A stretch of 35,257 bases of DNA from positions 1 to 35,257 of the forward strand of contig JADGIG010000037.1 in assembly GCA_018985235.1 (NCBI GenBank), written 5' to 3'. Shown piece by piece: positions 1,242 to 23,377 of the stretch (the stretch's first letter is position 1; each line of letters opens with the position of its first letter). Under the pieces are notes generated by a model. The model saw nothing but the letters and a program-made list of their open reading frames with translations, was not told the DNA's origin and made no database searches. This DNA comes from Sanchytrium tribonematis. Taxonomy: Eukaryota. The position numbers and the translations under genes were made by a program.

Positions 1242-2535
1242 ATGAACTCAATTGCATTGCTCGATGAAGTTGGAAAAACACTAATCAAAAGAGACTATCG
1301 GGAACCTTTGCCCGTCAGTTTCCATCCCACAACTCCCGTTCACTATGACCCTGTTACCAAACACACTACATTTTACATAAAGTGGAACAATATTTATTTA
1401 ACGGCAGTGACTGACTCTAATTGCAATACCACCACCTTACTGATTTTCTTAACGAAATTGAAGGAGACTTTAGTCAGCTATTTTACCGAATTGAATGAAG
1501 AGAGTATTCGCGACAATTTTATTATTATTTACGAATTGTTAGACGAAATGATGGATTATGGATACCCGCAAGTCACGCAAGACAGCATTTTAAAAAGCTA
1601 CATCACCCAAGATGCATATCAATTACAGGCGTTCACTGGTGGTGTCCAGTCAGTCCCCACAACTGTCACAAACTCTATTAGTTGGAGAAATCCTGATATC
1701 AAATACAGAAAGAATGAAGTTTTCTTGGACGTTATTGAGTCTGTTAATTGTTTAATTGCAGCCAATGGTACTGTAATTAAAAGCGATGTTTGTGGTAGCG
1801 TAAAAATGAGATGTTTTTTATCTGGAATGCCGGAATTAAGACTCGGATTGAATGACAAAGTGCTTTTGGAACAAAGAGGAAATGGGAAAAAAGCTATTGA
1901 TTTGGAAGATGTTAAGTTTCATCAGTGTGTAAGACTACAAAAGTTTTCTACTGATAGAACAATTTCTTTCATTCCTCCTGACGGAGAATTCGAGCTTATG
2001 AGTTATCGTGTAAATACACAAGTCAAGCCTCTAATTAGTTGCGAATCCGTTATTGAATATTATTCAAGTTCAAGAGTCGAGTATTTAATCAAGGCAAAAT
2101 CCCAATTTAAGAGAAGATCCACTGCAAACAATGTTGAAATTATTGTTCCTGTTCCCGTCGATGCAGATACTCCAAAGTTTAAGGTATTTTTGATTTATAT
2201 AGTGTTCTACTGGATCTGTTAGCTACGCCCCAGATAAAAACGCTTTCGTATGGAAAATTAAACAATTTCAAGGTGGCAAAGATTTTTTGATGAGAGCTCA
2301 TTTCGGTTTACCATCAGTCAATCAACAGGATAACTTTTATAAACAGCCTATTCAGGTTAAGTATGAAATCCCATATTTCACGATAAGTGGAATTCAAGTT
2401 CGATATTTGAAGATTGTGGAAAAATCTGGCTATCAAGCTCTACCATGGGTAAGATACATTACTCAAGATGGAGAATATTTTATGAGAATGCCAGATCCGG
2501 TTATGGGTACAAGTAGAATGATGCAACCTATTTAA
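1242..2535 (+). CDS. APM1: AP-1 clathrin adaptor mu subunit; exons 1242-2183 and 2203-2535 (424 aa)
   Basis: Motifs EESIRDNF, YELLDEMMDYGYPQ, YRKNEVFLDVIE, LSGMPELRLGLNDK, FIPPDGEFELMSYR, ALPWVRYITQ. Removing the 19-nt intron joins DTPKFK|CSTGSVSYAPDKNAFVWKIKQF. Confidence 0.95.
2184..2202 (+). other. 19-nt spliceosomal intron (GTATTTTTGATTTATATAG), phase 0
   Basis: GT..AG; removal joins two ORFs in frame into a full-length AP-1 mu. Confidence 0.92.
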
Positions 2536-2635
2536 TAAATGTCCTGATTTTCACTGATAAATTTATGATACCAAATTGAAATCAACGTCGCAAATGATGT
2601 GCCCCATCACGTTATGCAATTCATGACGACAAAAC

Positions 2636-3601
2636 ATGAAGCATTTCGCTCTATCAATTGGCATATTTATAGGACATTTATTAGAGAGTTTTCAATTTCT
2701 ACCACATTTTCATTCTGATTTACTTGTATCAAAAACCCTCAATCACAAAAAAATAGCATATGGTATATTCGTACATAACAATGAGACCTGGTATGGCATG
2801 AACGAATTAGTTGACAAGCTGAATAACGACAATAGCTGTTTTGTTATTCATGTCGATAAAAAATTTCAAATTCCATCAAAAAGTCCCAAAAGCAACGTTC
2901 ATGTTATACAAATGTTCAACATAACCTGGGGAACCTTTTCGTTGACAAAATCTATGATTCAGCTGACAAACTTTGCATTCAGGCAATGCACTTTTGACAT
3001 ATTTCAATTCTTGGATGGCAATTCATATCCTTTACATTCAAATCAGGAAATACAAAGATTTTATGACCACTTAAATGAAAACATAGTATTCAGTGCAACA
3101 AAGACCCTGCGGAGTGGTAAGAGCTGCTGGGGAGGGCATTTTGGAAAGGACCCATGTCGGAGGACAAAATCCAAATGCTTAGATGAAGAATGCAATTTGT
3201 ATGATAACACCCCAAGAAATAGACCTGTGTATAAAGGAATGCAATGGGTTACACTTCAGTACGATTTTGTACATTATATGATGAACAATATTGAATGGTT
3301 GACAGAATGGATTGAATTTTTTCGTCCTTACAAATTAAACGACGAAATGTTCTTCCAAACATTAGTTATGGATGCAGGCGCACCACAAAAGACATTTGAG
3401 ACCGATGTGATACAGACAATATGGGGACGCTGTCGGTCTTACGTCACTGAACGGTCTCGTAAAAAGTGGAGTCCTTGTTATGTTGGTGAAAAGGAAATGA
3501 ATAGAATTAAATATTCGTCCCTTTTTCTCAGAAAATTACATTATGATGAACCTATCAAAGTCGCTATTGACAAATTAGATGCTGAGTTGAGGTTTAATTA
3601 A
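2636..3601 (+). CDS. Glycosyltransferase family 14 (core-2/I-branching, xylosyltransferase-like) protein with N-terminal signal or anchor
   Basis: KIAYGIFVH, FVIHVDKK, ITWGTFSL, LDGNSYPL, YKGMQWVTL, DEMFFQTL and LFLRK match the GT14 pattern; hydrophobic N-terminus. Confidence 0.8.
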   Translation: MKHFALSIGIFIGHLLESFQFLPHFHSDLLVSKTLNHKKIAYGIFVHNNETWYGMNELVDKLNNDNSCFVIHVDKKFQIPSKSPKSNVHVIQMFNITWGTFSLTKSMIQLTNFAFRQCTFDIFQFLDGNSYPLHSNQEIQRFYDHLNENIVFSATKTLRSGKSCWGGHFGKDPCRRTKSKCLDEECNLYDNTPRNRPVYKGMQWVTLQYDFVHYMMNNIEWLTEWIEFFRPYKLNDEMFFQTLVMDAGAPQKTFETDVIQTIWGRCRSYVTERSRKKWSPCYVGEKEMNRIKYSSLFLRKLHYDEPIKVAIDKLDAELRFN

Positions 3602-3624
3602 ATTAAATAAAAAACTCCTTTTTT

Positions 3625-21174: not shown

Positions 21175-21317
21175 GGGGTAATTTTTTTGAATTTTTTTAT
21201 ACAATTCGCCAAGTCCTTGGAAAAATTATGAAGACCATTCGCTCAATATCGATTCAAATATTTTAACGTCGAGCTTTTGAATTTACTGCGTATATTAATA
21301 CAAGCAGGCATGTTATA

Positions 21318-21330
21318 TTCTAGATTTTTC
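21318..21330. promoter_or_regulatory. Imperfect heat-shock element upstream of BiP
   Basis: TTC-TA-GAT-TT-TTC, close to nTTCnnGAAnnTTCn, about 50 nt upstream of the BiP ATG. Confidence 0.35.
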
Positions 21331-21381
21331 GAAAAAATAAATGAGATTACTCCTCTTTTTGCAGATTACTCCTTGTGACCC

Positions 21382-23377
21382 ATGCTTTTGAAGAACTTTG
21401 TACTTACAATCTTGGCAACTATGGTTTTTGCTGAAGCAAAAGAGTCCGAGGACACTGGACTTATGGTTGGAATTGATCTCGGAACTACATACTCATGTGT
21501 TGGAATATGGAGAGACGATCGTGTTGACATCATTCCTAATGACCAAGGTAATCGAATTACCCCTTCTTATGTGGCTTTCACTGACGACGAAAGGTTGGTT
21601 GGAGATGCTGCAAAAAATCAAGCACCTATGAATCCTACAAATACTGTTTTTGACGCTAAACGTTTGATCGGTAGAAAATGGGACGACCCTAAGCTACAGG
21701 ATGACAAGAAATTGTTACCTTACGAGCTTTTCAATAAAAACGGCAAACCTAGCATTCGTGTTCAATGGCAAAACAAAAATCAAGAATTTTATCCTGAACA
21801 AATCAGTGCAATGGTTCTTGAATACATGAAAAAAATCTCTGAAACTTTTTTGGGAGAAAAAATCAGTCGCGCAGTTGTAACTGTACCTGCCTATTTTAAT
21901 GACGCTCAACGTCAGTCTACTAAAGATGCAGGTGCTATTGCAGGACTTAAGGTAGAAAGAATTTTGAATGAACCAACTGCTGCTGCAATTGCCTACGGTT
22001 TAGACAAAAAATCTAAGGAAGAAGTTAACATTATCGTTTTTGACTTGGGTGGTGGTACATTTGATGTTTCACTTCTTACAATCGATGGAGAAGTTTTTGA
22101 GGTTCAGGCAACTGCTGGAGATACCCATTTGGGTGGTGAAGACTTTGACAACAATATTGTAGCGTATTTTGGACAGTTATGGAAGCAAAAAACTAAGAAG
22201 GACGTCAAGAAAGACCCTAAAGCTGTTGGAAAATTAAAGCGAGAGGCAGAAAAGGCAAAACGTGCACTCTCATCACAGCAAACTGTCAGAATAGAAATTG
22301 ACTCATTAATGGACGGAGAAGACTTTACTGAAACCTTAACCAGAGCTAAATTTGAGGAGTTGAACATTGAATTATTCAAAAAGACTATTAAACCTGTCAA
22401 GCGTGTACTTAAAGATGCCGGTTTGGAAAAGAAAGACATCGATCAAGTTGTTTTGGTTGGTGGTTCTACTCGTATCCCCAAAGTGCAAGAATTGTTGCAA
22501 GAATTTTTTGACGGTAAAACTTTGAACAAGGACATCAATCCTGATGAAGCTGTTGCTTATGGTGCAGCCGTACAAGCTGCCGTTTTGTCTACACATCCAA
22601 GTCAAAGAAATGATAAAATTGCTCTTTTGGACGTTAATCCATTATCTTTGGGTATTGAGACAACTGGTGGTGTTATGACCAAACTCATTCCAAGAGGTAC
22701 AACATTACCAACTAAAAAATCTCAAATCTTCTCCACTGCTGCAGACAATCAACAGACTGTTCTTATTCAAGTTTATGAAGGTATTAATTTTTGACATAGG
22801 TGAACGTACAATGACCAAAGACAATAATATGTTAGGACAATTTGAACTTACTGGAATCCCACCTGCTCCTAGAGGTGTTCCTCAAATTGAGGTTACTTTT
22901 GAGTTGGATGTCAACTCAATTTTGAAAGTCTCAGCTGCAGACAAAGGTACCGGAAAAGCTGAATCTATCACTATTGAGCAAAATAAGAATAGACTCACAG
23001 ACGAAGAAATTGAGAAGCTTATTCAAGAATCTGAGAAGTTTGCTGACCAAGATAGAGCGGCCAAAGAAATGGTTGAGGCAAAAAATAATTTGGATCAATA
23101 TCTATATCAATTGAAACAACAAGTTACTGACAAAAATCAACTAGGTGGTAAGCTATCTGATGAAGACAAGAAAGCTGTTACAACCGCTGTTGAGGACGGT
23201 CTTGCTTGGATCGGTAAAAATGAGGGAACTGCAAGCAAAGAAGACTTTGAAGAAAAGAAGGCTGAAATTGAGGGAGTCGTTCAGCCTATCATTGCGAAAG
23301 TCTACGAGGGTGCAGGAGCTGGTGGATCCGACGGTGATAGCAAAGAAGCTTGGGAAGACGATGATGATGAATTGTAA
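21382..23377 (+). CDS. KAR2: ER Hsp70 BiP/Kar2; exons 21382-22780 and 22800-23377 (658 aa)
   Basis: Signal peptide, [40 protein letters not shown], spliced [12 protein letters not shown], and C-terminal DDEL retention signal. Confidence 0.97.
22781..22799 (+). other. 19-nt spliceosomal intron (GTATTAATTTTTGACATAG), phase 1
   Basis: Removal restores the conserved Hsp70 motif QVYEGER. Confidence 0.95.

What the first reader, a model, noticed from the sequence alone, without database searches (positions are those of the whole stretch)
2184..22799. Fixed-length 19-nt spliceosomal introns with a branch point fused to the 3' splice site
Seen: seven introns (2184-2202, 7532-7550, 8855-8873, 11811-11829, 13330-13348, 19569-19587, 22781-22799) are all 19 nt. 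All start with GTA and have T at +5, T at -8, A at -6 and TAG at the end. Each restores a conserved protein motif. Known: introns this small and uniform are reported from heterotrich ciliates (15-16 nt), Mikrocytos and chlorarachniophyte nucleomorphs (18-21 nt), whereas typical fungal introns are several times longer. Inference: a fungus-like lineage has independently evolved a length-measuring minimal spliceosome with only a 14-nt lariat loop. Because 19 = 3n+1, any retention causes a frameshift. Gene finders with a minimum intron size of 20 nt or more would mis-annotate these genes.
Basis: partly seen in the sequence, partly recalled or inferred. Interest (0 to 1): 0.93.

Follow-up and report, generated by a model that had tools for sequence, protein, structure and literature searches.

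The report
Nineteen-base introns in sanchytrid fungi
Seven genes in this stretch of an alga-parasitising sanchytrid fungus are each broken by a 19-base insert that likely is a spliced intron, shorter than any fungal intron we found in print, and public protein sets for these fungi carry the affected genes cut short.

Summary
Confirmed in DNA; no RNA was available. All seven 19-nt GT-AG inserts exist; the motif occurs 7 times at 19 nt versus 0.27 in shuffles. Removing each opens a full reading frame, colinear with homologues in five genes, ambiguous (19 or 22 nt) in one. The organism groups with Amoeboradix gromovi (Sanchytriomycota). Truncated read-through proteins of relatives let intron letters be back-read: three fix 19 nt and force an ACNAAY branch box with A at -6; three others do not fit 19 (20, 21, 18/20). 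So the branch-to-AG module is constant, the length narrow rather than strictly fixed. 'Minimal spliceosome' is not supported: A. gromovi keeps U1-70K, U2AF, SF1, Prp8, Dbr1; Slu7 and Prp18 were not found. Tiny uniform introns are known (Stentor, Mikrocytos, nucleomorphs), as is this 3' geometry (Yarrowia); we found no report for sanchytrids. EukProt holds 6 of 6 tested genes as truncated proteins. The scan's notes hold nothing on this genome or look-alikes; they mention 26-29-nt Rozella introns.

The parts
2184..2202 (+). 19-nt intron, phase 0, in AP-1 complex mu subunit gene (CDS 1242-2535, 424 aa spliced)
   Evidence: Pfam PF00928 positions 1-162 | 163-258 abut at the cut; gapless within 8 aa either side in 115 of 120 homologues; same 19-nt intron back-read in A. 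gromovi P0243 and ENA P0122
7532..7550 (+). 19-nt intron, phase 1, in NSF/Sec18 gene (CDS 5749-7969, 733 aa spliced)
   Evidence: Gapless in 111 of 119 homologues; three sanchytrid relatives stop at the same place; gene models of Tieghemiomyces (P0330) and Papiliotrema (P0327) break or carry an insert at the same residue
8855..8873 (+). 19-nt intron, phase 1, in branched-chain amino acid aminotransferase gene (CDS 8023-9049, 335 aa spliced)
   Evidence: TIGR01123 positions 11-261 | 262-310 abut; PDB alignments of both exons; a 22-nt cut at the next TAG also keeps frame but drops one residue
11811..11829 (-). 19-nt intron, phase 1, in diphthine-ammonia ligase Dph6 gene (CDS 12409-10621, 589 aa spliced)
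   Evidence: TIGR03679 positions 2-180 | 180-211 meet at the split codon; PDB motif GEGGEF restored
13330..13348 (-). 19-nt intron, phase 0, in a sanchytrid gene of no known family (CDS 15655-13117, 839 aa spliced)
   Evidence: Only frame-restoring GT/GC-AG cut within 30 nt; relatives stop at the same place; ENA P0370/P0374 read-through matches 7 of 7 exon-2 residues only at n=19
19569..19587 (-). 19-nt intron, phase 2, in proteasome beta-7 (PSMB4/Pre4) gene (CDS 19982-19298, 221 aa spliced); donor ambiguous
   Evidence: Both exons match PSMB4/Pre4; the 19-nt cut is colinear with yeast Pre4, a 22-nt cut from a GT 3 nt upstream is colinear with human PSMB4; the motif favours 19
22781..22799 (+). 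19-nt intron, phase 1, in BiP/Kar2 gene (CDS 21382-23377, 658 aa spliced)
   Evidence: PF00012 positions 2-438 | 438-599; gapless in 116 of 120 homologues; ENA P0002 and P0003 stop at the same place, A. gromovi P0004 and ENA P0121 run through

Best explanation
Seven genes carry 19-nt GT-AG inserts that are likely U2-type spliceosomal introns shrunk to about the shortest length that still holds all the usual signals end to end, and they are predicted to be removed by a largely ordinary spliceosome. Layout: bases 1-6 donor (GTAnT, with G at the exon end in 6 of 7), 7-8 a two-base link, 9-15 the branch box read by U2 (A at 14, i.e. -6), one base, then TAG. Shown: the inserts, the frames, the shared positions. 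Inferred: U2 pairs with 9-15 and bulges A14; the acceptor is simply the YAG three bases after the branch, with no scanning, so Slu7/Prp18 would be dispensable; a 14-nt lariat loop results. The narrow length would come from a steric floor on the donor-to-branch distance plus genome-wide pressure to shorten, not from a dedicated ruler: in relatives the branch-to-AG distance appears to stay put while the loop gains one or two bases. At least the NSF intron is likely an old fungal intron that shrank in place.
For: Motif and length excess; frames and homology. A at position 14 in 7 of 7, chance about 0.002 over 15 positions; T12 pairs Watson-Crick with U2 in 7 of 7, position 15 pairs in 7 of 7, position 11 by G-U in 6 of 7, position 10 in 5 of 7. 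Three relatives' tails (P0122, P0243, P0370/P0374) fix n=19 with 9 of 10, 11 of 11 and 7 of 7 exon-2 residues and force A10 C11 N12 A13 A14 Y15; two more (P0252, P0003) force T9 A10 Y11 T12 R13 R14: the canonical WCTRAY box (PMC2483917). P0251 fits 20 nt and P0369/P0373 21 nt with all six 3' positions in register. A. gromovi is annotated with core U1, U2, U5, branching and debranching proteins and Upf1/Upf2; Slu7 and Prp18 give 0 hits in its sheet; Slu7 is not needed at branch-to-3'SS distances of 9 nt or fewer (PMC10158995). Shared NSF position in two distant fungi.
Against: No transcript, lariat or snRNA was seen; branch position is inferred. Relatives' intron letters come from back-translated peptides, not DNA; the 20- and 21-nt calls rest on a stop codon read as the acceptor TAG, and those introns could be longer. 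2 of 10 tails are uninformative and 1 (A. gromovi P0371) needs a GC donor or a shifted donor. The window's own boxes are degenerate (positions 9 and 13 pair in only 4 and 3 of 7). Seven introns in 35 kb cannot give a genome-wide distribution, and in-frame stop-free introns (18, 21 nt) could be missed in genes without homologues in hand. Slu7/Prp18 absence comes from an eggNOG table covering about half of a proteome that is itself truncated by these introns. 7 of 7 at exactly 19 in the window is also what a strict ruler predicts.
Confidence: 0.78

Rival explanations
1. A true molecular ruler: the spliceosome of this species has been remodelled so that it recognises donor and acceptor at one fixed distance and rejects other lengths.
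For: 7 of 7 window introns are 19 nt; the window's branch boxes and donors (T+5) are weak, so distance may carry information; BCAT has a TAGTAG acceptor where homology favours the first AG; Mikrocytos splices 16-nt introns better than 17-nt ones (PMC10245619).
Against: 3 of 10 relatives' tails do not fit 19, and P0251 (20) and P0374 (19) are both listed with a longest contig of 15,133 nt, so one organism may hold both lengths; core factors are retained in A. gromovi.
Confidence: 0.14
2. The inserts are not removed from RNA: assembly artefacts, pseudogenes, or recoding at the ribosome.
For: No RNA evidence was obtained; the only run that holds the DNA may be its source.
Against: The hosts include BiP, NSF, AP-1 mu and proteasome beta-7 with intact downstream exons; contigs of X1 cross six of the inserts at depth of about 108-186 with no indel listed; the same breaks recur in independent assemblies of other sanchytrids; GT, branch box and AG have no role in recoding; three inserts hold an in-frame stop.
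Confidence: 0.03
3. The inserts are removed, but not by the spliceosome (endonuclease plus ligase as for HAC1/tRNA introns, or excision from DNA).
For: Their size is close to that of Ire1-type introns (recalled, no call).
Against: GT-AG ends in 7 of 7, a U2-type box in relatives, an NSF position shared with annotated introns of distant fungi, and Prp8, U2AF and Dbr1 in A. gromovi; X1 contigs list no joint that skips an insert.
Confidence: 0.03

Closest known systems
Heterotrich ciliate tiny introns (Stentor coeruleus, Blepharisma; PMC9505925 passages; PMC13685798 passages)
   Same: GTA start, T at +5, branch A at -6, TAG end, narrow length, about 0.26-0.50 introns per gene, core spliceosome retained
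   Different: 15-16 nt with a 10-nt loop and a U-rich box; here 19 nt with a 14-nt loop and, in relatives, a canonical ACTAAY-compatible box; 3n+1 rather than 3n; unrelated lineage
Chlorarachniophyte nucleomorph introns (Bigelowiella natans; PMC6009652 passages; PMC2483917)
   Same: Same size class (18-21 nt, 19 nt typical), GT-AG
   Different: No discernible branch A, 3.1 introns per gene, relict endosymbiont nucleus; here a clear branch register, about 0.24 per gene, in a main nucleus
Mikrocytos mackini introns (PMC10245619 passages)
   Same: Parasite, uniform very short introns with conserved sequence
   Different: 16-17 nt, only 224 introns, strongly reduced spliceosome (17-19 proteins), none in metabolic genes; here metabolic genes (BCAT, Dph6) carry them and the relative keeps U1-70K, U2AF and SF1
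Yarrowia lipolytica branch-anchored 3' ends; also Trichomonas, Giardia, Entamoeba invadens (PMC2483917 passages; bioRxiv 10.1101/2022.06.08.495308 abstract and section 12)
   Same: Yarrowia TACTAAC|NN|AG puts the branch A at -6, the same geometry, no polypyrimidine tract
   Different: Yarrowia introns are long (median 204 nt) with G at +5; the fusion alone is not new, its packing into 19 nt is
Short introns of Microsporidia and Rozella (PMC6349667 passages) and of myxozoans (PMC13644364, first third of text)
   Same: Parasites with sub-30-nt introns
   Different: About 25-30 nt in the fungal relatives and median 22-27 nt in myxobolids; sanchytrids sit next to Blastocladiomycota, so the shortening is separate

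Membership tests
U2-type spliceosomal intron | GT...AG ends | tested here: met
   7 of 7
U2-type spliceosomal intron | Removal restores the conserved reading frame | tested here: met
   7 of 7 stop-free; colinear with homologues for five, ambiguous donor for beta-7, relative-only for the unknown gene
U2-type spliceosomal intron | Branch box able to pair with U2 GUAGUA, with a bulged A | tested here: met
   T12, A14, Y15 in 7 of 7; ACNAAY or TAYTRR forced in 5 of 10 relatives' tails; sequence evidence only
U2-type spliceosomal intron | Excision from mRNA through a lariat | not testable with these tools
   No RNA run was listed for this DNA
U2-type spliceosomal intron | Host encodes the major spliceosome (snRNAs and core proteins) | tested here: inconclusive
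   No genome held for the window; no Rfam hit in the window; proteins annotated in the relative A. gromovi; snRNAs not seen
U12-type (minor) intron | RTATCCTT donor and TCCTTAAC branch (consensus recalled) | tested here: not met
   0 of 7 have either
Strictly fixed-length introns (single length class) | One length throughout the genome or lineage | tested here: inconclusive
   7 of 7 in the window; 3 of 10 relatives' tails do not fit 19; genome not available
Highly reduced spliceosome (microsporidian/mikrocytid type) | Loss of most early-assembly factors | tested here: not met
   Tested on the relative only: U1-70K, U2AF1, U2AF2, SF1, cactin, SNRNP40, Isy1, Cwc25, Yju2, Prp17 annotated in A. 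gromovi
Sanchytriomycota (host lineage) | Groups with Amoeboradix gromovi on a long branch sister to Blastocladiomycota | tested here: met
   NSF tree, 32 rows, quick method: 4-row clade SH-aLRT 100, sister group 94; 79-86% identity to A. gromovi NSF and BiP against at most about 70% to other named taxa

The most novel reading that the evidence does not exclude
Across a whole fungal phylum, some two thousand introns per genome have collapsed to 19 (plus or minus 1-2) nt, the shortest in Fungi, keeping a canonical U2 branch box only two bases from the U6-paired donor; the lineage has dropped G+5 and lost Slu7/Prp18 while keeping the rest of the spliceosome. That would be a natural measurement of the minimum substrate of a near-complete fungal spliceosome, and would mean that up to a quarter of published sanchytrid proteins are truncated or split.
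Probability: 0.5. Interest if true: 0.82.

Novelty: new variant of a known kind. Interest (0 to 1): 0.68.

Why it matters
First, it adds an independent origin of sub-20-nt introns, in Fungi, where searches found none described. Because relatives keep a readable branch box, the spacing of donor, branch and acceptor can be counted: 6+2+7+1+3. That makes the long-standing question of the minimum intron testable by comparing 19-, 20- and 21-nt alleles, and by asking whether U1 and U2 can sit on 19 nt at once. Second, sanchytrid proteomes were called as ORFs on genomic contigs, and EukProt holds the intron read-through forms as 'complete' proteins. Phylogenomic matrices and domain or gene-loss claims that use them may be affected for any gene with such an intron (7 of 29 ORFs listed here).

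Tried and rejected
No whole genome is held, so no histogram or snRNA search. No RNA holder listed. Run X1 is DNA, may be the source, and was laid on 1001-21000 only; the BiP intron has no read-level check. The one metagenome scan with NSF gave 11 loci at 37-69% identity, none with a 19-nt motif excess (0 in 10 loci, 1 in L005): useful only as outgroup sequence. A branch-box consensus pattern found 0 matches in viral contigs. Rfam: 0 hits in the window. ESM Atlas, Pfam and NCBIfam gave nothing for the 791-aa protein. An unbiased ORF-join scan gave 1,170 candidate cuts; it recovers the seven but is not specific by itself. A relaxed motif scan at 16-23 nt listed 34 sense or edge candidates; beyond the seven (and sub- or super-cuts of them) they lie inside unbroken ORFs or, in one case, between genes, and none was accepted. 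My first reading that the beta-7 cut is exactly colinear with human PSMB4 was wrong: it is one residue longer, and colinear with yeast Pre4. The careful tree did not finish; the quick tree is reported. SNRNP27 and METTL16 gave 0 hits in the A. gromovi table; not used, since small or unnamed proteins are easily missed. The species of the window was left open.
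Full report
Observation. The seven segments are at the stated places, all 19 nt, GTA...TAG, with T+5, T-8, A-6 and a pyrimidine at -5. The strict motif occurs 7 times at 19 nt, against 0.27 on average in 30 dinucleotide shuffles, and 0 or 1 time at each of the other 26 lengths from 14 to 40. The motif was taken from these seven, so this count is partly circular; the protein evidence is not. 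The window is compact: 29 listed ORFs cover 96% of it, seven with one intron each.

Frames. Removing each insert gives a stop-free frame (7 of 7); keeping it gives a premature stop 1-203 nt after the donor, inside the insert in three cases. Profile positions abut at the cut for AP-1 mu (162|163) and BiP (438|438), and for BCAT (261|262) and Dph6 (180|180). The junction is gapless in 115 of 120 AP-1 mu, 116 of 120 BiP and 111 of 119 NSF homologues; the misses include the truncated relatives discussed below. Other frame-restoring GT/GC-AG cuts exist near six of the seven sites. For proteasome beta-7 this matters: the 19-nt cut is colinear with yeast Pre4, a 22-nt cut with human PSMB4; only the motif favours 19. 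The gene at 15655-13117 has no family.

Organism. The best named relative is Amoeboradix gromovi in EukProt: BiP 86%, NSF 79%. In an NSF tree of 32 rows (quick method; the careful search did not finish; the window row was cut to exon 1) the window, two ENA proteins and A. gromovi form a long-branched clade (SH-aLRT 100), sister to seven Blastocladiomycota (94). That is the position given for Sanchytriomycota in PMC8371127 (search listing and passages). The species was left open.

Relatives. No DNA of relatives could be had, but their proteins were called as plain ORFs and so read into the intron. Ten distinct read-through tails (12 proteins) were back-translated. Three fix the length at 19 because the frame-shifted tail encodes the window's exon 2: A. 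gromovi AP-1 mu 11 of 11 residues, ENA P0122 9 of 10, ENA P0370/P0374 7 of 7; all three force A10 C11 N12 A13 A14 Y15. Two (A. gromovi NSF, ENA BiP P0003) force T9 A10 Y11 T12 R13 R14, the same register, without reaching the acceptor. Two are too short to inform. Three do not fit 19: P0251 cannot have AG at 18-19 and fits 20; P0369/P0373 cannot have AG at 18-19 or 19-20 and fit 21; A. gromovi P0371 fits 20 with a GC donor (or 18 from a shifted GT). In the 20- and 21-nt cases T-8, A-6, Y-5 and TAG all fall in register. G at +5 is excluded in 9 of 10 tails. A. gromovi BiP (P0004) and ENA P0121 have no break; P0121 might come from a transcript. Gene models of Tieghemiomyces and Papiliotrema end or carry an insert at the same NSF residue, and a partial Piromyces AP-1 mu ends at the same residue, which suggests old positions shrunk in place.

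Mechanism. Shown: inserts, frames, shared positions, forced letters. Inferred: positions 9-15 pair with U2 GUAGUA (T12 7 of 7 Watson-Crick, position 15 7 of 7, position 11 6 of 7 by G-U, position 10 5 of 7; positions 9 and 13 weaker), bulging A14. Donor (1-6), link (7-8), box (9-15), one base and TAG add up to 19, so the canonical signals lie end to end. With the acceptor this close no scanning is needed; Slu7 is unnecessary at 9 nt or fewer (PMC10158995 passages), and Slu7 and Prp18 give 0 hits by name, KEGG and KOG identifiers (identifiers recalled) in the A. gromovi eggNOG sheet, which is held whole; the second sheet is cut. That table annotates about half of the proteins, so this is a lead. 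The same sheet lists U1-70K, U2AF1, U2AF2, SF1, Prp8, Dbr1, Brr2, SF3B1, SNRNP40, Snu13, cactin, Upf1, Upf2, Isy1, Yju2, Cwc25, Prp17 and Prp22: not a minimal machine. T+5 with exonic G-1 (6 of 7; AG 5 of 7) fits the donor class that leans on exon-end pairing (PMC11732430, search listing only); a changed U1 or U6 is possible, as in Entamoeba (bioRxiv 10.1101/2022.06.08.495308), and untested. I prefer a steric floor plus pressure to shorten over a dedicated ruler because length varies upstream of the branch in relatives; 7 of 7 at 19 in the window keeps the ruler alive.

Comparison. Stentor and Blepharisma introns have the same GTA, T+5, A-6, TAG layout at 15-16 nt. Mikrocytos has 16-17 nt with a reduced spliceosome. 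Chlorarachniophyte nucleomorphs have 18-21 nt without a visible branch A. Yarrowia has the -6 anchoring in long introns. Microsporidia and Rozella are near 25-30 nt, myxobolids 22-27 nt. PMC8476143 (passages) surveys fungal introns and did not show sub-20-nt cases in the passages seen. So the kind is known; the fungal origin and the full box in 19 nt appear undescribed.

Print status. Searches: sanchytrid+intron, Sanchytri/Amoeboradix/intron, tiny introns, shortest introns in fungi, Sanchytriomycota+splicing, ultra-short introns in zoosporic fungi, Amoeboradix/EukProt. The two sanchytrid papers mention 'intron' only in a reference title. The library lacks most subscription papers, and two supplements of PMC8371127 could not be read, so a mention may exist. 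The scan's own notes hold nothing for this genome or look-alikes; word search returned Rozella and Neolecta short-intron notes.

Annotation. Six of six intron read-through ORFs asked about are in EukProt as exact sequences, the BiP one is also in the collection, and three A. gromovi entries labelled 'complete' stop at the introns. PMC8371127 states that ORFs were called on contigs with TransDecoder. At 7 introns in 29 ORFs, about a quarter of genes could be affected (extrapolation from one window).

Limits. No RNA, lariat or snRNA evidence. X1 contigs cross six inserts without an indel, but X1 may be the source DNA; the BiP insert has no read-level check.

Verdict. Real, very likely spliced, new for Fungi as far as searched, convergent with known tiny-intron systems. 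Interest 0.68.

Noticed in passing
window 27429-35257 (+): An unbroken, very divergent dynein heavy chain of at least 2,609 aa whose best solved-structure hits are DNAH10 / inner-arm f-alpha (E 5e-67 against 1e-33 for the next class), although PMC8371127 says sanchytrids lack double-headed inner-arm dyneins. It may be a decaying or repurposed flagellar motor.
   Followed up: partly
window 8023-9049 (+): The BCAT's six solved-structure hits at E<1e-30 have IlvE-type names and it scores best with bacterial IlvE-II models. If it came from bacteria, its 19-nt intron was gained afterwards. Origin not tested with a tree.
   Followed up: partly
window, all seven introns: Six of seven lie in the 3' half of the coding sequence (0.59-0.92), unlike the 5' bias usual in intron-poor genomes (recalled).
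   Followed up: no
window 24435-24452 (-): An 18-nt AT-rich GT...TAG stretch with a perfect TACTAAT box, between the Eaf3 and gamma-SNAP genes; donor does not match GTAnT. Possible 5' UTR intron or chance.
   Followed up: partly
window 19872-20550: X1 contigs show two versions at about 40-50% depth each with many substitutions: heterozygosity or mixed strains.
   Followed up: no
P0371 (A. gromovi, EP00835_P003484), C-terminus: The read-through begins with an alanine codon, so the orthologous intron has a GC donor (20 nt) or has slid by two bases (18 nt).
   Followed up: partly
P0004 (A. gromovi BiP) versus window 22781-22799: The BiP intron is present in the window and two ENA relatives but absent in A. 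gromovi: intron loss or gain within the phylum.
   Followed up: partly
window 13117-15655 (-): An 839-aa protein with only four relatives among 1.84 billion representatives, one of them A. gromovi; no family found.
   Followed up: partly
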